Source of the DNA: Escherichia phage Ro45lw
Sequence record: NC_048136.1
DNA: 39,793 bases
Strand: one strand, 5' to 3'
How positions within the stretch are numbered: the stretch's first letter is position 1; each line of letters starts with the position of its first letter. The position numbers were made by a program, and so were the translations under genes. Under the pieces are notes generated by a model. That model was not told the DNA's origin. It made no database searches and was given only the letters and a program-made list of their open reading frames with translations. Positions 12,523 through 39,028 of the stretch are shown here, piece after piece.

Positions 12523-14538
12523 ATGATTGACTTACAGAACATCTGGGGTTCGGACATCGAGACCAACGGTCTCCTTGACACCGTGTCCCAGTTCCACTGT
12601 GGGGTCCTGATTAACGCCGAGTCGAACGAGACCCTGAAGTATGGGGTGGTGCCGATGGTCGGTATCGTCGGTGGCTTTAAAGAGTATGTGGAGAAGGTCG
12701 AGCAGATTGCAGCGACTCCGCATGGACTGCTGGTCTTCCACAACGGTATTAACTATGACGTTCCAGCGATTGACATCCTGAAGCGTAAATACTTTGGGAA
12801 GCGTTTCAACTTTCCGAAGCAGAAGATGATAGACACGCTGGTCATGGGACGCCTGATGTATCCGAACATTAAGTTCTCGGACATTGGGGCTGTGAAAGCT
12901 GGTCGTCTTCCTCCGAAGATGATGGGCCGACAGTCGCTTGAAGCGTGGGGATACCGTCTCGGTGAGATGAAGGGCGAGTACAAGACCGATTACATTGCCA
13001 AGTGCAAGGCCGAGGGTATCGAATATAAAGCTGGGGACGAATGGTTGTTCCCTAGCCAAGAGATGCTGGACTATAACGTCCAAGACGTTGTGGTCACTCT
13101 GGCCTTGTTCAAGAGGTTCCTGACCGACAAGTTCTACTTCGGGACACCTGAAGCCGGACTTGAGGCTGTGTACGCGTTGCGTCTTGAACACGATGCTGCA
13201 TGGGCCTGTGCGAAGATGGAGCGCAACGGCTACCCGATGAACTCGGAGATAGTCGAAGGCTTGTATCGTGAGCTGTCTATTAAACGAGCTGAGCTGCTGG
13301 ACAAGCTGCGTTCGACCTTTGGTAGCTGGTATGCGCCGAAGGGTGGCAAGGAGTTCTTCAGACATCCGAGGACTGGAGTTGACCTGCCGAAGTACCCGCG
13401 AGTCGTGTACCCGAAGGTCGGGGCCATCTTCAAGAAGCCGAAGAACAAAGCACAGCGCTTAGGTCTTGAGCCTTGTGAGCGAGACTCCCGTGATACTATG
13501 GAAGGCGCACCGTTCACACCGATTACATTCGTTGAGTTTAATCCGGGTTCCGGGGACCACTTAGCGAGGGTGCTGATGGAACGCGGATGGGAGCCTGTGG
13601 ACTTCACGGAGACCGGGAAACCTGTAGTCGATGACGAGGCGCTGGAGAACGTCCATCTGGCAGACCCAGACGCTCAGGCTTGCGTAGAGCTGGTCCGAGA
13701 GTATCTGGTAGTCCAGAAGCGTATCGGTCAGGCGGCTGAAGGCAAGAACGCATGGCTGAAGCTCGTGGGTCCTGACGGAAGGATGCACGGGTCGATTAAT
13801 CCTTGTGGTGCTGTGACTGGACGTGCGACCCATAGTTCACCAAACATGGCTCAGGTCCCAGCTAACGGTGCCCCATACGGTGAGACTTGCCGTGGTGCTT
13901 TCGGTGCAGCGTGGAACAAGACTGACGGTAAGCCAGACCCTTGGATTCAAGTTGGTGTGGATGCTTCGGGTCTTGAGCTTCGTTGTCTGGGGAACCGTGC
14001 GTCCCCGTTCGATGGTGGTGAATATGCGAAGACTGTGGTCGAGGGAGACATCCACTGGGCTAATGCGGTCAACGCCGGGTTAGCACCTAACGTCCCACGC
14101 GACAAGTCCAGCCACGACCACGATGCTTTCCGTAACAACGCCAAGACGTTCATCTATGCGTTCCTGTATGGTGCAGGGGCCTCGAAGATTGGACTGATAG
14201 TCGGCGGTGGTAAGAAGGAAGGTTCGGCCCTGATGAAGAAATTCATTGAGGGTACGCCAGCTATCAAGGACCTGCGAGAGGCTGTGCAGAACACGCTAAT
14301 CTCCGAGTCCAAGTGGGTAGACGGTGAGAACATTGTGAAGTGGAAACGTCGCTGGCTGAAAGGTCTGGACGGTCGACGCATTCACATCCGGTCGCCACAC
14401 TCAGCACTTAACGCCTTGCTTCAGGGTGATGGTGCGGTTGTCTGTAAGCACTGGATTGTCGAGACCGAGCGTATGCTCGAAGAGGCCGGGTATGTCCACG
14501 GCTGGGATGGAGACTTTGCGTACATGGCATGGGTGCAT
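12523..14538 (+). CDS. 5: DNA polymerase, exon 1 (codons 1-672)
   Basis: Collinear with T7 gp5 (IETNGL, exonuclease motifs, thioredoxin-binding region, KTFIYAFLYGAG, HGWDGDFAYMAWVH); the reading frame hits TAA right after WVH although T7 continues. Confidence 0.9.
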
Positions 14539-15136
14539 TAACATCATGGTGCACATTAAATCTGGTGAACTCGGTGAACTCCTAATGGGACAATACCGAG
14601 CCAAGCCATAGGGAGGATGTATGAGAGGCAAGAAGTTAATTCTTGAGGCCACTGAGACTGGCTGCATAATCCCTACGTCACATAAATTGAATCAGGATGG
14701 ATACTTCCGAAAGAGGACTAACGGTGTCCTTGAGATGTATCATAGAACTGTATGGATTAAAGCTAATGGTCCAATACCTGACGGTTTCGAAGTAGACCAC
14801 AAGTGTCGTAATAGAGCTTGTTGCAACGTCGAACATCTACAAGTATTAGACCGGGACTCACACTTAGTCAAGACCAACCAAGAGCGATACGCTGCTAGGA
14901 AGCTAGAAGCACGAGACTACTGGGTAGAGACTGGGTGTACTGGAACGAAGTTAGCCGAAGTATTCAATGTGTCGTTCTCAGCCGCCTGTGGGTGGATTAG
15001 AGAGTGGAAGGCGTAGAGACTATCCGAAAGGAGTAGGGCCGTGGGTGAGATTCCCACGTAACCCGAAGCGCCAGACAGTCACCTCAAAGACTGATGATAT
15101 AGTCCGACACTTCCAGTAATGGGAGAATACAGAAAG
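14539..15136 (+). mobile_element. Putative group I intron (598 nt) carrying an HNH homing endonuclease gene
   Basis: Separates two segments that together encode an intact T7-like DNA polymerase; 5' exon ends in T, insert ends in G; P1 candidate 14533-14538/14549-14554; R-like AGAGACTA (15013-15020) and S-like GATATAGTCCGAC (15097-15109). Confidence 0.75.
14621..15016 (+). CDS. Intron-encoded HNH homing endonuclease, 131 aa
   Basis: RBS GGGAGG; HNH-type motif GPIPDGFEVDHKCRNRACCNVEHL; AGA/AGG/ATA-rich codon usage unlike neighbouring genes. Confidence 0.8.
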   Translation: MRGKKLILEATETGCIIPTSHKLNQDGYFRKRTNGVLEMYHRTVWIKANGPIPDGFEVDHKCRNRACCNVEHLQVLDRDSHLVKTNQERYAARKLEARDYWVETGCTGTKLAEVFNVSFSAACGWIREWKA

Positions 15137-15292
15137 GATGAGTTACAGATTGCTTGTCGTACTCAAGAAATAGCAGAACGTACAGTAGAAATTGCTCAAC
15201 TTGCTATGCGTAAGGTTGGTGAGTTCTATAACTTTAAATGTGTCCTTGATACCGAAGGTAAGATTGGACCAACTTGGAAGGAGTGTCACTAA
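15137..15292 (+). CDS. 5: DNA polymerase, exon 2 (C-terminal 51 aa)
   Basis: DELQIACRTQEIA...FKCVLDTEGKIGPTWKECH aligns with the T7 gp5 C-terminus DEIQVGCRTEEIA...FRCLLDTEGKMGPNWAICH. Confidence 0.8.
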   Translation, partial: DELQIACRTQEIAERTVEIAQLAMRKVGEFYNFKCVLDTEGKIGPTWKECH

Positions 15293-16774: not shown

Positions 16775-16797
16775 ACTAAACTATCACTATAGGGACT
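16775..16797 (+). promoter_or_regulatory. Phage-RNAP promoter (phi6.5-like)
   Basis: CACTAAACTATCACTATAGGGACT, consensus. Confidence 0.8.
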
Positions 16798-17370: not shown

Positions 17371-17772
17371 ATGCTCCACTACCGAAACTCAAGCGATGGT
17401 CGCCTAATGGCTGCTTATCGCCTCTGGGAAGACGGACAGTCTGACTTCGCCTCCTTCTCCGAGTTCAAGCAGCATACCTTCCGTATGGCTGATGAGCTTG
17501 AGGGCGAGGAGTACACAATCTACGATGATGAGTGTAAGCCTGTGGCCTACCTCTACATGCTGGCTTCATCGTCTTGGCACCGAAAGACTCCCGGTCTTGA
17601 CCTTTCCATTCTCGCTATCCGTAGTGACTCGCAGTCCTCCCGCAAGGTTCTTGAGACTGTCAGACACATTATTGACGGAGAGTGCAGACGATGGGGTCTG
17701 AACTGGTGGTCCCGTGTCAAGCACAATGGGCCAGTAGACATCGTTACAACCAAGGAGATTAACCGTGGGTAA
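17371..17772 (+). CDS. 7: gp7-like protein (host range / virion assembly)
   Basis: 133 aa; VAYLYMLA...WxSRxKHxG pattern similar to T7 gp7. Confidence 0.65.
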   Translation: MLHYRNSSDGRLMAAYRLWEDGQSDFASFSEFKQHTFRMADELEGEEYTIYDDECKPVAYLYMLASSSWHRKTPGLDLSILAIRSDSQSSRKVLETVRHIIDGECRRWGLNWWSRVKHNGPVDIVTTKEINRG

Positions 17773-18016
17773 ATCCATTAGTAAAGCCTTTAAGAAAGTA
17801 GTAGGTGGTGCTCTGAACACCGTAGGTCTGGGACAATCAGCCCCTCAGCCTAAAGCTCAGGACGCTCAGGTAGCTGCTGCTCCGGTAGAAGTGCCTCAGG
17901 ACCAAGTGACTGACGTTGAGACTGATGTGACCGAGACCGATAAGAAGAAGGTCAAGTCAACTGGTAAGCGTGGACTTCAAGTCTCTCGTACCTCTGGTGG
18001 AGGCATCTCTATATGA
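17765..18016 (+). CDS. 7.3: gp7.3-like tail/host-range protein
   Basis: C-terminus GKRGLQVSRTSGGGISI matches T7 gp7.3 (SLSVARSSGGGINI); GTG start with RBS AAGGAG 8 nt upstream. Confidence 0.8.
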   Translation: MGKSISKAFKKVVGGALNTVGLGQSAPQPKAQDAQVAAAPVEVPQDQVTDVETDVTETDKKKVKSTGKRGLQVSRTSGGGISI

Positions 18017-18423
18017 CAGACTGCATACTACATAAGGGCTGCGTTAATAATTCTGGGTATGGCCTGAAGTGGTATGCCGGTAAGCTGCGGGGAGCACACG
18101 TAGTGTCATATCTCAAGAACAAGGGACCTATACCAGAAGGGCTAGTTGTGATGCACTCTTGTGACAACAGATTGTGCGTAAATCCAGAACACCTTAGTGT
18201 TGGGACCTACAGTGAGAACATGATAGACTGTGTTTCCAAGGGACGGAAGAACGCTCCGCATAGTGACAGCCACTACAACTCCAAGCTGAGCGCTGAAGAA
18301 GTTAAGTCCATACGCAAGTCAGGACTAACTGCTACAGAGCTTACAGCCATGTATCCTGGAGTGTCTAGGAGAACGCTGTCTGACGTATTAACAGGTAAAA
18401 CATGGAGGCACGTAGATGGCTGA
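18013..18423 (+). CDS. HNH endonuclease (free-standing, putative homing endonuclease), 136 aa
   Basis: SGYG...GPIPEGLVVMHSCDNRLCVNPEHL motif; paralogous to the ORF at 29244; AGG/AGA/ATA codons. Confidence 0.85.
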   Translation: MTDCILHKGCVNNSGYGLKWYAGKLRGAHVVSYLKNKGPIPEGLVVMHSCDNRLCVNPEHLSVGTYSENMIDCVSKGRKNAPHSDSHYNSKLSAEEVKSIRKSGLTATELTAMYPGVSRRTLSDVLTGKTWRHVDG

Positions 18424-19984
18424 ACGTGAAGGATTTGCTGCTGAAGGCGCGAAGTCAGTTTATAATAGATTGAAGAACGGACGACAGCCTTACGAGACCC
18501 GCGCACAGAACTGCGCTGCCGTGACCATCCCCTCGCTATTTCCTAAGGAGTCTGACAACTCGTCTACGGAATATTCAACCCCGTGGCAAGCTGTGGGCGC
18601 TCGCTGCCTGAATAACCTTGCAGCCAAGCTGATGCTGGCTCTGTTCCCACAAGCGCCGTGGATGCGGCTTACCGTCTCTGAATACGAGGCAAAGGCTCTA
18701 AGTCAAGACTCTGAGGCTGCTGCCCGTGTTGACGAGGGGCTGGCTATGGTCGAACGTGTCCTGATGGCCTACATGGAGACTAACAGTTTCCGTGTCCCGC
18801 TATTCGAGGCCCTTAAGCAACTTATCGTCGCAGGCAACTGTCTGCTGTACGTTCCTGAACCTGAGCAAGGGACCTATAGTCCTATGCGCATGTATCGTCT
18901 GGTATCATATGTGGTCCAGCGTGATGCGTTCGGTAACGTGCTCCAGATTGTCACCCTCGACAAGGTGGCATATAGCGCACTACCTGAAGACGTTAAGTCC
19001 CAGCTAAACGCTGACGACTACGAGCCGGACACCGAGCTGGAAGTCTACACGCACATCTATCGTCAGGACGACGAGTACCTGCGCTATGAGGAAGTGGAAG
19101 GCATAGAGGTTAAGGGGACCGATGGTTCCTACCCGCTGAATGCCTGTCCTTACATCCCGGTACGAATGGTTCGACTGGATGGTGAAGACTATGGTCGTTC
19201 TTACTGCGAGGAGTATCTTGGAGACCTAAACTCGCTGGAGACGATTACAGAAGCTATCACCAAAATGGCTAAGGTAGCCTCCAAAGTGGTGGGCCTCGTT
19301 AACCCGAACGGTATCACGCAACCTCGACGTCTGAACAAGGCGGCTACAGGTGAGTTCGTGGCTGGTCGAGTAGAGGACGTCAACTTCCTGCAACTTACGA
19401 AAGGTCAGGACTTTACGATTGCTAAGTCGGTGGCTGACGCTATCGAGCAACGTTTAGGCTGGGCCTTCCTTCTTAATAGTGCTGTTCAGCGTAATGCCGA
19501 GCGAGTCACTGCCGCAGAGATTCGTTATGTTGCTGGCGAACTGGAGGCGACCTTAGGTGGCGTGTACTCTGTGCAGTCTCAGGAGATGCAGTTACCTCTG
19601 GTCCGTGTGTTGCTGAACCAGCTTCAGTCTGCTGGCATGATTCCTGACCTTCCGAAGGAAGCGGTAGAGCCTACGGTCTCCACTGGTCTGGAAGCGCTGG
19701 GCCGTGGTCAGGACTTGGAGAAGCTGACTCAGGCGGTTAACATGATGACTGGACTTCAGCCTCTGGCTCAGGACCCTGACATCAACTTGCCGACCCTGAA
19801 GCTGCGACTGCTGAATGCCTTAGGAATTGACACCGCTGGCCTACTCCTGACGCAAGACGAGAAGATTCAGCGCATGGCTGAGCAGTCATCTCAACAGGCA
19901 GTTGTCCAAGGTGCTGGTGCTGCTGGTGCTAACATGGGAGCTGCTGTAGGTCAGGGAGCTGGTGAGGACATGGCTCAAGCCTAA
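18416..19984 (+). CDS. 8: Portal (head-tail connector) protein
   Basis: Long identical stretches to T7 gp8 (PYETRAQNCA, TPWQAVGAR, YVVQRDAFGNVLQ, GLVNPNGITQPRRL, QLPLVRVLL). Confidence 0.95.
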   Translation: MAEREGFAAEGAKSVYNRLKNGRQPYETRAQNCAAVTIPSLFPKESDNSSTEYSTPWQAVGARCLNNLAAKLMLALFPQAPWMRLTVSEYEAKALSQDSEAAARVDEGLAMVERVLMAYMETNSFRVPLFEALKQLIVAGNCLLYVPEPEQGTYSPMRMYRLVSYVVQRDAFGNVLQIVTLDKVAYSALPEDVKSQLNADDYEPDTELEVYTHIYRQDDEYLRYEEVEGIEVKGTDGSYPLNACPYIPVRMVRLDGEDYGRSYCEEYLGDLNSLETITEAITKMAKVASKVVGLVNPNGITQPRRLNKAATGEFVAGRVEDVNFLQLTKGQDFTIAKSVADAIEQRLGWAFLLNSAVQRNAERVTAAEIRYVAGELEATLGGVYSVQSQEMQLPLVRVLLNQLQSAGMIPDLPKEAVEPTVSTGLEALGRGQDLEKLTQAVNMMTGLQPLAQDPDINLPTLKLRLLNALGIDTAGLLLTQDEKIQRMAEQSSQQAVVQGAGAAGANMGAAVGQGAGEDMAQA

Positions 19985-20002
19985 ACTATCACTATAGGAA
20001 CT
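19980..20002 (+). promoter_or_regulatory. Phage-RNAP promoter (phi9-like)
   Basis: CCTAAACTATCACTATAGGAACT; followed by hairpin CCGGGTGAGACTCCCGG at 20030-20046. Confidence 0.8.
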
Positions 20003-29243: not shown

Positions 29244-29693
29244 ATGAAGAACGGAACAGCCAGTGAGAGACTGGCACGTCTTTCGACTGTAGAAGTAACT
29301 GGCTGTGTCCGATTCACTGGAGGACTCAACAGTAGTGGTTATGGAAACCTATGGGTCGATGGTAAGACAGTTGGAGCGCATCGTGTTGCCTATGAGTTAG
29401 CGAACGGTCCGATACCTAAGGGTAGCGTACTTCGTCACACTTGTGACAACAGGTACTGCGTGAATCCTGAACATTTAGTCTTGGGAACACATCGTGAAAA
29501 CATGGAGGATATGACCAAGCGAGGCCGTCAGGCGAGAGGCTCTAAGATCAGCACGTGTGTGCTGTCCGAGGAGGACGTAAGGTCTATACGCTCAAGTGAT
29601 AAAAGTGGTGTGGAACTGGCACAGATTTTCGGAATCTCACCAGTAACTATTAGTCGAATCAAGAGGAGATTAACATGGCAGCACGTGGAGTGA
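29244..29693 (+). CDS. HNH endonuclease (free-standing, putative homing endonuclease), 149 aa
   Basis: SGYG...GPIPKGSVLRHTCDNRYCVNPEHL; paralog of the 18013 ORF; RBS AAGGAG; sits between genes 15 and 16, where T7 has no gene. Confidence 0.85.
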   Translation: MKNGTASERLARLSTVEVTGCVRFTGGLNSSGYGNLWVDGKTVGAHRVAYELANGPIPKGSVLRHTCDNRYCVNPEHLVLGTHRENMEDMTKRGRQARGSKISTCVLSEEDVRSIRSSDKSGVELAQIFGISPVTISRIKRRLTWQHVE

Positions 29694-36218: not shown

Positions 36219-36656
36219 ATGCTCAAACTTTTACGACAGGCCGTCCCTTGGCTGGTGGCAGGACTCCTGTTCTGTTCTGGCTACTGGGTGGCAGACAATA
36301 AGTGGGAGGCGAAGGTAAACAATGAGTACATCACGAAACTTGAGGCACGAGAGAATCAACGGGCTGCTGTCCAAGGTGAAATCGACAAAGTGTCAGCAGA
36401 GTGGCAAGACAAGATGTCCGCGCTGGAAGGCTCTACTGATAGGATTATTGCTGACCTTAACCGCGATAACAAGCGGTTGCGCGTCAAAGTCAACACCTCA
36501 GGTCTCACCGAGCGAGATATCAGTCGATGCTTCCCTAATGGTAGAGTCGAACTACACCCAGAAACTTCTAAAAGTCTTATCCGAATAGCTCAGGAGGCAG
36601 ACCTTAAGGAGAAGGCGCTTCAAGACACAATAAGGAGGCTCCAAGGTGTTAAGTGA
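36219..36656 (+). CDS. 18.5: Rz-like i-spanin
   Basis: N-terminal transmembrane segment ([16 protein letters not shown]) then a charged coiled-coil region; RBS AAGGAGGG. Confidence 0.8.
36322..36588 (+). CDS. 18.7: Rz1-like o-spanin, embedded in Rz in a +1 frame
   Basis: Hydrophobic stretch [16 protein letters not shown] followed by Cys (lipobox-like) and a Pro/Ser-rich segment; start uncertain (ATG 36322 or GTG 36376). Confidence 0.5.
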   Translation: MSTSRNLRHERINGLLSKVKSTKCQQSGKTRCPRWKALLIGLLLTLTAITSGCASKSTPQVSPSEISVDASLMVESNYTQKLLKVLSE

Positions 36657-36709
36657 TTACTACATTAGAGGAGGCTATCTCTGTCCGGGACCTAATGCTG
36701 GAGGGCTCT

Positions 36710-38476
36710 ATGTCTAAGAAAACACCTGCTGAAAGACAGGCTGAAATGACCCAAAGGATGCGGGATGACTTCGTGTTCTTCATCTTCGTTCTCTGGAAAG
36801 CGCTGAGCCTTCCGGTTCCAACCAGATGTCAGATAGATATGTGTAAGAAGCTGGCTGCTGGCGATAACCGACGCTTCATCCTTCAGGCGTTCCGTGGTAT
36901 TGGCAAATCGTTTCTGACCTGTGGTTTCGTGGTCTGGAAGCTATGGAACAACCCAGACTTGAAGTTCATGATTGTGTCAGCCTCAAAGGAACGTGCTGAC
37001 GCGAACTCCATCTTCATCAAGCGAATCATTGACCTGATGCCTCAGCTCCAAGAGTTGAAGCCTAAGCAGGGGCAGCGAGATGCTGTTATCAGCTTCGACG
37101 TTGGGCCAGCCAAACCAGACCACTCACCCTCGGTTAAGTCCGTTGGTATCACTGGTCAGTTGACTGGTAGTCGTGCTGACATCCTGATTGCCGATGACGT
37201 GGAGGTTCCAAACAACTCAGCGACTCAGGCTGCACGAGACCGTCTGTCAGAGCTTGTAAAAGAGTTCGATGCTATCCTGAAGCCGGGAGGTACAATCATC
37301 TATCTGGGCACTCCTCAGAACGAGATGACCCTGTATCGTGAGCTAGAAGGACGTGGGTACTCCACTACTATCTGGCCAGCTCGTTATCCGCGCGACAGGA
37401 AGGACTGGCAGTCTTACGGCGACCGTCTGGCTCCTATGCTTCAGGCAGAGCTTGAAGAGGACCCTGAGTCCTTCTACTGGCGTCCGACCGATGAGGTACG
37501 CTTCGATGATACGGACCTGAAGGAACGTGAGCTGTCATACGGTAAGGCTGGCTTCGCTCTACAGTTCATGCTTAACCCTAACCTGAGTGATGCAGAGAAG
37601 TACCCACTGAAGCTCCGTGACCTTATCGTAGCAGACTTGGACCCAGCGTCTAGCCCAATGGTCTACCAATGGTTGCCGAACCCTCAGAACAAGCGTGAGG
37701 ACGTTCCTAACGTTGGACTCATGGGTGACTCGTACCACACGTATCAGACTGTAGGTTCTGCCTTCAGTTCGTACACCCAGAAGATTCTGGTCATTGACCC
37801 TAGTGGTCGTGGTAAGGATGAAACTGGTTATGCGGTACTATACCAGCTCAACGGCTACATCTTCGCTATGGAAGTTGGTGGTATGCGTGGTGGGTATGAA
37901 GACTCTACGCTGGAAGCATTGGCTAAGATTGGTCGTAAGTGGAAGGTCAACGAATACGTCATTGAGGGTAACTTCGGTGATGGTATGTACCTTGAGCTAT
38001 TCAAGCCTGTAGCGGCCCGTATCCATCCTGCGGCTGTAACTGAAGTGAAGAGTAAGGGTCAGAAAGAACTCCGCATCTGTGACGTTCTGGAGCCTATCAT
38101 GGGGTCTCACAGACTTATCGTTAACGCTGCTGCTATCGTCCAAGATTACCAGTCAGCCTCTGATAAGGACGGTGTTCGTAACCCTATCTACTCTCTCTTC
38201 TACCAGATGACCCGTATCAGCCGTGAACGTGGGGCCTTGGCTCACGATGACCGACTTGATGCTCTGGCTATCGGTGTACAGTTCTTCGTAGAGTCTATGG
38301 CGAAGGATGCCGTAAAGGGACAGCGTGAAGTCACTGAGGAGTGGCTGGAGGAGCAGATGGAGGACCCACGGAAAGGCTTCAAGTCCATCGAGACTGACTA
38401 CTGGGACAATGGGGTCAGGGTCCAGTTCAATACAGATGATGACTTAGGCTTGGGGTCCTACGTACAATTTCATTAA
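36710..38476 (+). CDS. 19: Terminase large subunit
   Basis: [37 protein letters not shown] (Walker A), [55 protein letters not shown] match T7 gp19; ATG 36710 gives a T7-like N-terminal length, GTG 36653 is the alternative. Confidence 0.9.
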
Positions 38477-38485
38477 GGAGGTATA

Positions 38486-39028
38486 ATGGCAAAGGCGAAG
38501 GACATCGACAGGGTGTCCCTCTTTGACCACTACGCATACGTTGACGGACAGTTGGTGTGCAGGAAGCCTTATGGCAGCTCGAAGAAGACTCCGGGTGAGC
38601 CTATGGGCTTCTCTGTACACCCTTCCGGCTATGCGATAGTGAAAGTGCTCGGAAGTCGTTACAGGCGCTCTCGCATCATCTACAGTCTAGCTGTGGGTCG
38701 AATCCCGAATGGTATGCTGGTTGACCACATCAACGGTGACAGACTGGATGACAGGCCAGAGAACTACAGGCTGGTCACTGAGTTGGAGAACCGATGGAAC
38801 TCCGCAGGTGGCGAGTCTAATGGTCTCCCTAAGGGTATCAGCTTCTTCAAGCCAACCGGGAAGTATCGCGCTCAGTTGCGACTTCAGGGTAAGTGCTTCA
38901 CTAAGACTTCGGACTCCATAGAGGAGCTTGAGGTCTGGCTGGAGGACTTAAGGTCAGAGAAGCACAAAGAATACTCAGTAAGCCTACGGTCCCCTAAGCG
39001 TGATAGGACCCGTAGAAACCACAAGTAA
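38486..39028 (+). CDS. HNH endonuclease with AP2-like DNA-binding region (putative homing endonuclease), 180 aa
   Basis: GYAIVKV...RRSRIIYSLAVGRIPNGMLVDHINGDRLDDRPENYRLVTELEN is an HNH core; RBS AAGGAGG; AGG/AGA/ATA codons. Confidence 0.8.
   Translation: MAKAKDIDRVSLFDHYAYVDGQLVCRKPYGSSKKTPGEPMGFSVHPSGYAIVKVLGSRYRRSRIIYSLAVGRIPNGMLVDHINGDRLDDRPENYRLVTELENRWNSAGGESNGLPKGISFFKPTGKYRAQLRLQGKCFTKTSDSIEELEVWLEDLRSEKHKEYSVSLRSPKRDRTRRNHK

What the first reader, a model, noticed from the sequence alone, without database searches (positions are those of the whole stretch)
18013..18423. Free-standing HNH endonuclease between genes 7.3 and 8, paralogous to the one at 29244
The 18013 and 29244 ORFs share the same architecture (SGYG...GAH.V.Y...GPIP.G.V..H.CDNR.CVNPEHL..GT..ENM.D..K.GR ... 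EV.SIR) and roughly 40-50% identity by eye, and both use AGA/AGG/ATA codons that are rare in the core genes. Two paralogous homing-type endonucleases in a 40-kb genome, plus the intron HNH, suggest repeated intron-less homing or marker exclusion.
Basis: partly seen in the sequence, partly recalled or inferred. Interest (0 to 1): 0.55.

Follow-up and report, generated by a model that had tools for sequence, protein, structure and literature searches.

The report
Mobile HNH endonuclease gene before portal
A small selfish nuclease gene, a relative of phage T7 gene 7.7, sits between the virion gene 7.3 and the portal gene of this K1F-like phage; comparison with relatives shows it arrived recently by horizontal transfer. 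This is an ordinary, already annotated kind of element, though an unusually clear example.

Summary
ORF 18013-18423 encodes a 136-aa HNH_3 protein. It is 45% identical to the 29244 ORF, about 45% identical over 65 aa to the 14621 ORF, and rich in AGA/AGG/ATA codons.

The window is a Kayfunavirus (K1F-like T7 relative), and the ORF occupies the slot of T7 gene 7.7 (44% identical to T7 gp7.7). An identical protein is already annotated as an HNH endonuclease in phage Pipis.

Evidence that it is mobile:
- The closest backbone relatives (EP1, Dev2) have an empty slot.
- More distant phages carry the same gene at 97.5-99% nucleotide identity, while the flanking genes are only 69-83% identical (HNH dS about 0.05, adjacent portal gene 0.52-0.63).
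- A patch of about 600 bp (about 17990-18600) is foreign to the surrounding backbone.
- Across Kayfunaviruses the slot is empty, holds one of three HNH lineages, or holds deletion remnants.
- Intact copies are under strong purifying selection (omega about 0.04).

The predicted fold is closest to I-HmuI: an HNH core plus a C-terminal helix-turn-helix.

Best reading: a free-standing homing endonuclease gene spreading by break-stimulated recombination. Cleavage and target site are untested. The two HNH genes are family-level paralogues, not a duplication within this genome. The window also has a fourth HNH_3 gene at 38486. Interest is low to moderate.

The parts
16779..16795 (+). Phage-RNA-polymerase promoter (phi6.5-like); the nearest promoter upstream of the HNH gene
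   Evidence: Perfect match to the K1F/CR44b-type promoter core AACTATCACTATAGGGA. There are 12 matches in the window against 0.05 expected. The CR44b record annotates the homologous site as a promoter. No promoter or terminator lies between it and the HNH gene.
17765..18016 (+). Gene 7.3 (virion/tail assembly protein), the upstream flank; its stop TGA overlaps the HNH ATG
   Evidence: Pfam VirionAssem_T7, E 3.5e-8. Annotated as 7.3 in Dev2, CR44b and Pipis. It is 92-94% nucleotide-identical to EP1/Dev2 but only 68-71% to the HNH-carrying phages.
17990..18012 (+). Left co-converted tract: the last 20-30 nt of gene 7.3 are donor-type (identical to GA2A); it includes an SD-like GGAGG at 17999-18003, 9 nt before the HNH ATG
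   Evidence: Alignment: the window equals EP1/Dev2 up to 17979, differs from them at 5 positions between 17989 and 18010, and is identical to GA2A from 17990. Informative-site map.
18013..18423 (+). Free-standing HNH endonuclease gene (136 aa), in the slot of T7 gene 7.7
   Evidence: PF13392, 46.9 bits. PHROG HNH families, E 4e-28. 44% identity to T7 gp7.7, E 8e-36. 100% amino-acid identity to the Pipis 'HNH endonuclease'. Omega about 0.04.
18091..18222 (+). HNH (beta-beta-alpha-metal) catalytic core, residues 27-70; invariant H48, C50, C55, H60, N69 and near-invariant N57, D51
18292..18393 (+). C-terminal three-helix (helix-turn-helix) putative DNA-binding domain, residues about 94-127
18404..18408 (+). 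GGAGG Shine-Dalgarno for portal gene 8, embedded in the HNH codons TGG-AGG (W-R)
   Evidence: Read from the sequence. It takes the place of the intergenic GGAGG of empty-slot phages. The last 12 nt of the HNH gene, which include it, survive as the scar in deletion alleles.
18416..19984 (+). Gene 8 (portal / head-tail connector), the downstream flank; its ATG lies 8 nt inside the HNH ORF
   Evidence: Pfam Head-tail_con, E 4e-99. Annotated relatives.
18424..18600 (+). Right foreign (co-converted) tract: the first 180-200 nt of gene 8 are not of the EP1/Dev2 backbone type
   Evidence: Against backbone relative L013: 32 mismatches in 177 nt here, versus 32 in 615 nt downstream (Fisher p 4e-7). The pattern is reversed for L016, L021 and L028. 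Per-30-nt mismatch map. Best database match is RDN8.1 at 94.9%, against about 82% for the EP1 type.
19984..20000 (+). Next phage promoter (phi9-like), marking the end of the transcription unit that contains the HNH gene
   Evidence: One mismatch to the promoter core. CR44b annotates a promoter at the homologous place.
29244..29693 (+). Second gp7.7-family HNH gene (149 aa) in the slot between genes 15 and 16; family-level paralogue
   Evidence: 45% identity to the 18013 ORF and 50% to T7 gp7.7. PF13392, 59.6 bits. Absent from EP1 and Dev2; present in GA2A, Pipis and TM1 at 87-89% nucleotide identity. Inserted exactly before the gene 16 ATG, and it carries a new SD (AGGAGA) for gene 16.
14621..15016 (+). 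[quoted passage not shown]
   Evidence: PF13392, 57.6 bits. RF00028 hit over 14529-15126 at 35.8 bits, below the gathering score of 50, E 2.9e-7 in a 1-kb search.
38486..39028 (+).
   Evidence: PF13392, 53.7 bits, E 1.6e-14. 33% identity over 61 aa to the 18013 ORF.

Best explanation
ORF 18013-18423 is a free-standing homing endonuclease gene of the T7 gp7.7 family: an HNH_3 (His-Me finger) nuclease with a C-terminal helix-turn-helix.

Shown here:
- It sits as a compact cassette of about 400 bp between gene 7.3 and portal gene 8.
- It has no promoter of its own. It lies within the late transcription unit that starts at the promoter at 16779.
- Its ATG overlaps the 7.3 stop, which suggests translational coupling.
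- Its own 3' codons carry the ribosome-binding site for gene 8, so portal expression should be preserved.

Inferred mechanism: in a cell co-infected with a relative whose 7.3|8 junction is empty, the enzyme nicks or cuts that DNA at or near the junction or the first tens of bases of gene 8. Repair copied from the HNH-carrying genome then transfers the cassette along with short stretches of flanking 7.3 and gene 8 sequence (co-conversion, which appears in crosses as marker exclusion).

Over time, copies that no longer spread are deleted, producing remnants, scars and empty slots that can be invaded again. The window phage is an EP1/Dev2-type backbone that acquired the cassette recently.

For: Mobility:
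- The closest backbones (EP1, Dev2, SFP21A and others at 92-95%) lack exactly this segment.
- Of 22 IMG/VR Kayfunavirus loci, 15 are empty, 3 carry this lineage, 3 a second lineage and 1 a third.
- The HNH gene is 97.5-99% nucleotide-identical in Pipis, GA2A and Penshu1, while gene 7.3 is 69-71% and the 5' end of gene 8 is 80-83%.
- HNH dS is 0.044-0.056, against 0.52-0.63 for the adjacent gene 8.
- ST31 and GA2A show the reverse: HNH dS 0.81 against gene 8 dS 0.24, so the gene's history is decoupled from the backbone.
- Foreign tracts flank the cassette: 20-30 nt on the left and about 180 nt on the right.
- Composition is foreign.

Function is retained: omega is about 0.04-0.06 across dS of about 0.85.

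Decay series at the same slot: two independent internal deletions (Seyj3-1, Monomax), and a 12-nt scar allele in L020 and at least 22 INPHARED records.

Dispensability of the T7 homologue: gene 7.7 deletions are viable (PMC12153263; bioRxiv 10.1101/2025.09.07.674715).

The general mechanism of free-standing phage homing endonuclease genes is established for T4 (PMC2790892, PMC2988022).
Against: - No nuclease activity, target site or gene conversion has been demonstrated here for this protein. My literature searches found no biochemical characterisation of any gp7.7-family member.
- General homologous recombination between co-infecting T7-like phages could by itself move a 600-bp patch.
- The right-hand foreign tract is only about 90-95% identical to any sampled phage, and its best match is a carrier of a different HNH lineage (RDN8.1). 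It may therefore not have arrived in the same event as the 99%-identical HNH.
- Penshu1 carries the HNH together with the 'empty-type' gene 8 5' sequence, and many empty-slot phages carry the 'occupied-type' sequence. No immunity haplotype or target site can be inferred from the association.
- Strong purifying selection is also what a gene beneficial to the phage would show.
Confidence: 0.75

Rival explanations
1. The gene is kept mainly because it benefits the phage. It could act as an anti-defence factor (DNA-end or DNA binding that blunts a host system such as GAPS4) or as a weapon against co-infecting relatives. In that case its patchy distribution reflects variable selection rather than selfish homing.
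For: - Strong purifying selection, omega about 0.04.
- bioRxiv 10.1101/2025.09.07.674715 reports that T7 lacking its endonuclease genes 2.8, 3.8 and 7.7 is outcompeted by wild type in the presence of GAPS4, and that the effect of homing endonucleases on GAPS4 does not require the catalytic histidine.
- Four HNH_3 genes are retained in a 39.8-kb genome.
Against: - Most sampled relatives lack the gene, and several show independent deletions of it, so any benefit is conditional.
- The reported anti-defence effect was tested with T7 3.8 and a siphovirus enzyme, not with 7.7 alone.
- This reading is not exclusive with homing and does not explain the sharp identity discordance confined to the cassette.
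Confidence: 0.15
2. The gene is an old, vertically inherited resident of the 7.7 slot that has been lost many times. Its presence on this backbone reflects ordinary homologous recombination between co-infecting phages, with no contribution from its own nuclease, which may be inactive.
For: - The slot is occupied in T7 itself and in many Studiervirinae, with a continuum of divergence at the same site (66%, 58%, 50%, 43%).
- Multiple independent deletions exist.
- Mosaicism is general in these phages: identity to any one relative varies from segment to segment along the genome.
- The right-hand tract does not match any sampled carrier of this HNH lineage closely.
Against: - HNH dS is ten times lower than in the adjacent portal gene, across three different backbones.
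- The recombinant patch is centred tightly on the cassette.
- Catalytic residues are invariant, and omega is about 0.04.
Confidence: 0.08
3. It is a morphogenesis or packaging accessory, like the HNH proteins that assist terminases in HK97-like phages, placed next to the portal gene for that reason.
For: It is adjacent to the portal gene and co-transcribed with late genes. The Hafnia phage Ca paper raised this idea for another Kayfunavirus HNH gene located next to the terminase (PMC8861465).
Against: - It is absent from 15 of 22 relatives, and from the closest ones, all of which are viable phages.
- T7 deletions of 7.7 are viable (PMC12153263).
- It is not adjacent to the terminase gene (36653-38476).
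- It belongs to the HNH_3 / I-HmuI-like family with an HTH, not to the terminase-associated type.
Confidence: 0.02

Closest known systems
Phage T7 gene 7.7 product (gp7.7, UniProt P03796); also T7 gene 2.8, which the Pipis and Penshu1 records cite as a BLAST relative
   Same: Same genomic slot between 7.3 and 8. Full-length homology: 44% identity, E 8e-36. Same size and the same conserved motifs, including the C-terminal TWRH motif. Non-essential in T7 (PMC12153263).
   Different: Only 44% identical. In T7 the gene has its own short intergenic spacer before it (L081: 7.3 ends at 687, 7.7 starts at 701), whereas here the start overlaps the 7.3 stop. The window's other HNH (29244) is closer to T7 gp7.7 (50%) than this one is.
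Identical or near-identical annotated genes: Escherichia phage Pipis CPT_Pipis033 'HNH endonuclease' (100% aa), GA2A gp37 (97.8%), Penshu1 gp032 (96.3%), ST31 gp28 (93.4%)
   Same: Same gene, same slot, same overlaps with 7.3 and gene 8.
   Different: The surrounding backbone differs: those phages are only 68-83% identical in 7.3 and the 5' end of gene 8. The window's backbone relatives have an empty slot.
I-HmuI (phage SPO1 intron-encoded HNH homing endonuclease, PDB 1U3E)
   Different: About 20-23% sequence identity. I-HmuI is intron-encoded, whereas this gene is free-standing. This protein has conserved Cys/His residues (C4, C50, C55, H60) that suggest a structural zinc site, with a weak, sub-threshold match to the I-PpoI-type zinc loop. 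That is inference, not shown.
Free-standing homing endonuclease genes of T4-like phages (MobE HNH; SegA-G GIY-YIG)
   Same: Intergenic cassettes next to conserved essential genes, sporadic among relatives, mobilised together with flanking DNA by gene conversion (PMC2790892, PMC2988022). The comparative footprints here match.
   Different: A different phage group and a different HNH subfamily. Homing of MobE and the Seg enzymes is experimentally shown; here it is only inferred.
Other Kayfunavirus HNH cassettes, e.g. the 397-bp HNH gene between 18.5 and 19 of Hafnia phage Ca, and CR44b genes 7.7 and 7.7C
   Same: Same genus, same cassette size, and overlaps with both neighbouring genes. Presence/absence polymorphism was even seen within one lysate (PMC8861465). 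CR44b annotates 7.7 and 7.7C as predicted homing endonucleases with an HTH.
   Different: Different slots or different lineages. CR44b 7.7 is only about 42% identical, although it shares the last ~24 nt of the gene and the gene 8 5' sequence.

Membership tests
HNH_3 / His-Me finger nucleases (Pfam PF13392) | Profile score above the curated gathering threshold | tested here: met
   46.9 bits against a cutoff of 24.8, E 2e-12, residues 27-70. PHROG HNH families down to E 4e-28.
HNH_3 / His-Me finger nucleases (Pfam PF13392) | Conserved catalytic His (general base) and Asn residues of the H-N-H/N motif | tested here: met
   H48 and N69 are invariant and N57 and D51 at least 90% conserved in a 60-sequence alignment. 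The assignment of roles to residues is by analogy.
HNH_3 / His-Me finger nucleases (Pfam PF13392) | Beta-beta-alpha-metal fold | tested here: met
   AF2 model with pLDDT 90: strands 45-48 and 61-64 followed by helix 66-75. Top structural neighbours are I-HmuI and I-PpoI. This rests on a predicted structure only.
HNH_3 / His-Me finger nucleases (Pfam PF13392) | Metal-dependent DNA cleavage | not testable with these tools
   Needs purified protein and a cleavage assay.
T7 gp7.7 family | Full-length sequence homology to T7 gp7.7 | tested here: met
   44% identity over 134 of 136 aa, E 8e-36.
T7 gp7.7 family | Location between gene 7.3 and gene 8 | tested here: met
   T7 record: 7.3, 7.7, 8 in that order. 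Window: VirionAssem_T7 ORF, HNH, portal.
Free-standing homing endonuclease gene (intron-less homing) | Stand-alone ORF, not inside an intron or intein | tested here: met
   The ORF lies between two complete genes. No Rfam family was found at this locus.
Free-standing homing endonuclease gene (intron-less homing) | Sporadic presence or absence at one fixed site among close relatives | tested here: met
   15 empty and 7 occupied among 22 IMG/VR loci. The closest relatives are empty.
Free-standing homing endonuclease gene (intron-less homing) | Gene history discordant with the flanking genes (horizontal spread) | tested here: met
   HNH dS 0.044-0.056 against gene 8 dS 0.52-0.63 for the same phage pairs. 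The reverse discordance holds for ST31 and GA2A.
Free-standing homing endonuclease gene (intron-less homing) | Co-conversion of flanking sequence | tested here: inconclusive
   Foreign tracts on both sides are statistically clear (p 4e-7). Only the first ~55 nt of gene 8 closely match carriers of this HNH; the rest is nearest to carriers of other lineages.
Free-standing homing endonuclease gene (intron-less homing) | Site-specific cleavage of the endonuclease-lacking allele and nuclease-dependent gene conversion in crosses | not testable with these tools
   Requires biochemistry and phage crosses.
I-HmuI-like intron-encoded nicking endonucleases | HNH core followed by a C-terminal helix-turn-helix DNA-binding domain | tested here: met
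I-HmuI-like intron-encoded nicking endonucleases | Encoded within a group I intron | tested here: not met
   Free-standing; there is no intron signal at 17700-18700. It therefore resembles I-HmuI in fold and architecture but is not an intron endonuclease.
Terminase-associated HNH proteins (HK97 gp74 type) | Adjacent to the terminase genes and conserved in all relatives because it is required for packaging | tested here: not met
   The terminase gene is at 36653-38476, 18 kb away. The HNH gene is absent from most relatives. T7 deletions of 7.7 are viable (PMC12153263).

The most novel reading that the evidence does not exclude
The 7.3|8 slot is contested by at least three HNH lineages that share the same 3' end and the same gene 8 5' haplotype. 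The clustered, mostly synonymous differences in gene 8 nt 31-57 (10 differences in 30 nt between the 'occupied' and 'empty' types) would then be a cleavage-resistance allele in the portal gene, as in the I-HmuI/I-HmuII competition in SPO1/SP82. Alternatively, or in addition, the intact copies are kept because their DNA binding blunts a host defence system.
Probability: 0.2. Interest if true: 0.5.

Novelty: already known. Interest (0 to 1): 0.3.

Why it matters
For annotation, this is simply a T7 gene 7.7-type HNH homing endonuclease gene, and an identical protein is already deposited.

Its value is as a clean natural example. One small slot in a well-sampled phage genus shows every stage of the homing-endonuclease life cycle:
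- a pristine empty site,
- a recent invasion with flanking conversion tracts,
- three competing lineages,
- internal deletions,
- a 12-nt scar.

That makes the gp7.7 family, for which my searches found no biochemistry, an easy system to test experimentally, since the candidate target DNA (the 7.3|8 junction of EP1- and Dev2-type phages) is already in hand.

It also matters in practice. Such cassettes create local recombination hot spots next to the portal gene. The 7.7 slot is also used as an insertion site in engineered T7 phages.

Tried and rejected
1. Immunity-haplotype idea. In the 22 IMG/VR loci, the gene 8 nt 18-57 haplotype tracked slot occupancy almost perfectly. This suggested a target or resistance site inside the portal gene. 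The wider INPHARED set broke the pattern: Penshu1 is occupied with the empty-type haplotype, LM33_P1-type phages are pristine-empty with the occupied-type haplotype, and at least 22 scar alleles exist. I treat the association as linkage rather than proof of a target site, and keep the idea only as the novel case.

2. Single-event transfer of the whole 600-bp patch from a Pipis- or GA2A-like donor. The tract beyond gene 8 nt ~55 matches RDN8.1, L016 and L021 better than it matches carriers of this HNH lineage. Either the donor is unsampled or there was more than one event.

3. Recent duplication within the genome as the origin of the two HNH genes. Rejected, because each is closer to same-slot genes in other phages than the two are to each other.

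4. PDB sequence search found nothing useful: one HTH hit at E 0.42. NCBIfam gave no hits.

5. Rfam at gathering threshold found nothing in the window. The DNA polymerase intron appears only in a permissive search of a 1-kb region.

6. Packaging-accessory role. Rejected on distribution.
Full report
**What is there**

The window is a complete or nearly complete genome of a K1F-like T7 relative (genus Kayfunavirus). Its best matches in the phage collection are ESh23, Dev2, SH4 and EP1, at about 90-95% identity.

ORF 18013-18423 on the + strand encodes 136 aa. Upstream is ORF 17765-18016, which matches the T7 gp7.3 family. Downstream is ORF 18416-19984, the portal protein gp8. The HNH ATG overlaps the 7.3 stop (ATGA). 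Its TGA lies 8 nt inside gene 8 (ATGGCTGA).

The nearest phage-polymerase promoters are at 16779-16795 and 19984-20000. No promoter or terminator lies in between. The gene is therefore read from the late 6.5-to-8 transcript. An SD-like GGAGG (17999-18003) lies inside the end of 7.3. The SD for gene 8 (GGAGG, 18404-18408) is encoded by the HNH codons TGG-AGG.

**Check of the observation**

The protein matches Pfam HNH_3 at 46.9 bits against a cutoff of 24.8, and PHROG HNH families.
- It is 45% identical to the 29244 ORF over 135 aa, E 7e-38.
- It is 45% identical to the 14621 ORF over the 65-aa core, E 7e-14.

AGA/AGG/ATA make up 8 of its 11 Arg+Ile codons, against 8.5% in 13 core genes (p 5e-7). 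Its GC content is 47.9% against 53.7%.

The one correction is that a fourth HNH_3 ORF exists at 38486-39028.

**What kind of protein**

An AlphaFold2 model built from a 60-sequence alignment has a mean pLDDT of 90. It shows a small N-terminal sheet, a beta-beta-alpha core (strands 45-48 and 61-64, helix 66-75), a lower-confidence linker, and three C-terminal helices (94-127).

H48, C50, C55, H60 and N69 are invariant, and N57, D51, C4 and H29 nearly so. By analogy, H48 would be the general base and N69 a metal ligand. The Cys/His set may bind structural zinc; that is inference.

No solved structure is detectably similar by sequence.

**It is the T7 gene 7.7 slot and family**

T7 gp7.7 lies between 7.3 and 8 and is 44% identical over its full length. 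The 29244 ORF is 50% identical to T7 gp7.7.

After the near-identical group, the best matches to the 18013 protein are genes at the same slot in other phages: VAC1 at 66%, ESh6 and pO111 at 57-58%, and the Yersinia fPS phages at 50%. The best matches to the 29244 protein are genes at the 15|16 slot of other Kayfunaviruses, at 53-58%.

The two window genes are therefore members of one family but belong to separate slot-specific lineages. They are not a duplication within this genome.

An identical protein is already annotated as 'HNH endonuclease' in phage Pipis, and near-identical ones in GA2A, Penshu1 and ST31.

**Evidence for mobility**

1. The closest backbone relatives (EP1, SFP21A, SFPH2, Dev2, SH4/5 and others) align over 87% of a 3.2-kb query in two pieces. 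They lack exactly this segment.

2. In 22 Kayfunavirus loci from IMG/VR, the slot is empty in 15. It holds this lineage (A) in 3, a second lineage (B, CR44b-type, about 42% identical) in 3, and a third (C, 36%) in 1.

3. Identity to Pipis, GA2A and Penshu1 is 97.5-99% within the HNH gene, but 69-71% in gene 7.3 and 80-83% in the first 500 nt of gene 8. As synonymous divergence, the HNH dS is 0.044-0.056, against 0.52-0.63 for gene 8 beyond nt 201 in the same pairs. Conversely, GA2A and ST31 have HNH dS 0.81 but gene 8 dS 0.24. The gene's history is decoupled from the backbone in both directions.

4. The window's backbone is EP1/Dev2-type up to about 17979 and again from about 18600. Between those points it is not.
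   - The last 20-30 nt of 7.3 are identical to GA2A.
   - The first ~55 nt of gene 8 match HNH carriers (0-3 mismatches per 30 nt, against 10 for EP1 in nt 31-60).
   - Nt 61-150 are closest to L016 and L021.
   - Against backbone relative L013 there are 32 mismatches in 177 nt in the tract, compared with 32 in 615 nt downstream (p 4e-7).

**Anatomy of the insertion**

The empty allele reads ...ATCTCAATT TAA GCAGGAGGTGACAA ATGGCTGAA...

The occupied allele reads ...ATCTCTATATGACAG...ACATGGAGGCACGTAGATGGCTGAA....

The cassette replaces the 7.3 stop codon and the 14-nt spacer, and supplies a new ribosome-binding site for the portal gene.

The 29244 cassette is built the same way. It is inserted exactly before the gene 16 ATG, uses the old SD for itself, and carries AGGAGA for gene 16. 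Its last codons overlap the first 19 nt of gene 16.

**Life cycle at the slot**

Intact copies are under strong purifying selection: omega is 0.04-0.06 across dS of about 0.85.

Decayed copies also exist:
- Seyj3-1 has an in-frame internal deletion that leaves a 30-codon remnant, between two ACAGA repeats.
- Monomax has a different, frameshifting internal deletion.
- L020 and at least 22 INPHARED records (the PRF-SP, STP-SP and CRW-SP Salmonella phages, PH1061, SD6) retain only the last 12 nt (GGAGGCACGTAG) as a scar.

LM33_P1-type phages have the pristine spacer joined to the occupied-type gene 8 sequence. Penshu1 has the HNH joined to the empty-type gene 8 sequence from nt 18.

The near-perfect association between slot state and gene 8 haplotype seen in IMG/VR is therefore linkage that recombination erodes. 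It is not proof of a resistance allele.

**Mechanism**

Best reading, with confidence of about 0.75: this is a free-standing homing endonuclease gene that spreads during co-infection by a nick or break at or near the empty 7.3|8 junction. Recombinational repair from the carrier genome then drags along short flanks.

The shown steps are the family assignment, the predicted fold, the slot polymorphism, the horizontal-transfer signature, the flanking foreign tracts, the selection on the protein, and the decay series. The inferred steps are the cleavage itself, the position of the target, nick versus double-strand cut, and translational coupling.

This is the behaviour established for the free-standing endonuclease genes of T4-type phages (PMC2790892, PMC2988022). 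It fits the general finding that such genes sit beside essential genes and at the boundaries of genetic exchange (PMC10448857).

**Rivals**

- A benefit to the phage. A preprint reports that T7 lacking genes 2.8, 3.8 and 7.7 loses to wild type in the presence of the GAPS4 defence system, and that homing endonucleases blunt GAPS4 without needing their catalytic histidine (bioRxiv 10.1101/2025.09.07.674715). This could help explain the purifying selection. It is compatible with homing, and it does not explain the cassette-centred discordance or the frequent losses.
- Pure vertical descent with losses plus ordinary recombination. This is hard to square with the tenfold dS contrast.
- A packaging role. 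This is excluded by the distribution and by the viability of T7 7.7 deletions (PMC12153263).

**Novelty and verdict**

This is a known gene in a known slot of a known family, already annotated in several deposited genomes. Comparable Kayfunavirus cassettes have been described, including a 397-bp HNH gene that is polymorphic within one lysate (PMC8861465). The variability of homing endonuclease genes among T7-like phages has also been noted before (PMC4925675).

What this analysis adds is a quantified case for recent transfer and a complete decay series at one slot. Interest is 0.3.

Noticed in passing
window 38486-39028 (+): A fourth HNH_3 ORF (180 aa; PF13392, 53.7 bits) lies directly downstream of the large terminase gene 19.
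   Followed up: partly
window 14529-15126 (+): A full-length match to the Rfam group I intron model RF00028 encloses the 14621 HNH ORF inside the DNA polymerase gene. It scores 35.8 bits, below the gathering score of 50, so the whole-window scan missed it; E is 2.9e-7 in a 1-kb search. Exon 1 appears to end near 14541, and the small ORF 15119-15292 may be the 3' exon.
   Followed up: partly
window 29244-29693 and the gene 16 start at 29675: The second HNH cassette is inserted exactly before the gene 16 ATG. Its last 19 nt are also the first 19 nt of gene 16, and it carries a new SD (AGGAGA) for gene 16. EP1 and Dev2 have the pristine junction TAATAACA|ATGGCG. Unlike the 18013 gene, its identity to GA2A, Pipis and TM1 (87-89%) is only slightly above that of its flanks (81-85%).
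   Followed up: partly
L083 (Salmonella phage Seyj3-1) and L085 (Dickeya phage Monomax), just upstream of gene 8: Two independent internal deletions of this HNH lineage leave remnants of about 70-90 nt. Seyj3-1's is in frame (30 codons, between ACAGA repeats). Monomax's is frameshifted.
   Followed up: yes
L020 positions 1985-2000; L084 (PRF-SP2); at least 22 INPHARED records: These are empty 7.7 slots that still carry the last 12 nt of the HNH gene (GGAGGCACGTAG) as the spacer before gene 8. That is a deletion scar, showing that many 'empty' phages once carried the gene.
   Followed up: yes
L007 (CR44b), L021, L022, L028 versus window 18392-18475: The lineage B HNH gene is only about 42% identical in protein. 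Yet it shares the last ~24 nt of the gene and the first ~60 nt of gene 8 almost exactly with this lineage. This suggests exchange of HNH lineages by recombination within the shared ends.
   Followed up: partly
window, 12 sites (e.g. 16779, 20971, 25440, 39046): There are twelve copies of the phage-polymerase promoter core AACTATCACTATAGGGA with up to 3 mismatches, all on the + strand. Five are perfect matches, four of them in the late region.
   Followed up: no
window 18566-18595 (gene 8 nt 151-180): This 30-nt stretch has 5-7 mismatches to every relative examined, both backbone and donor types. It sits at the right edge of the foreign tract, and its origin is unexplained.
   Followed up: no
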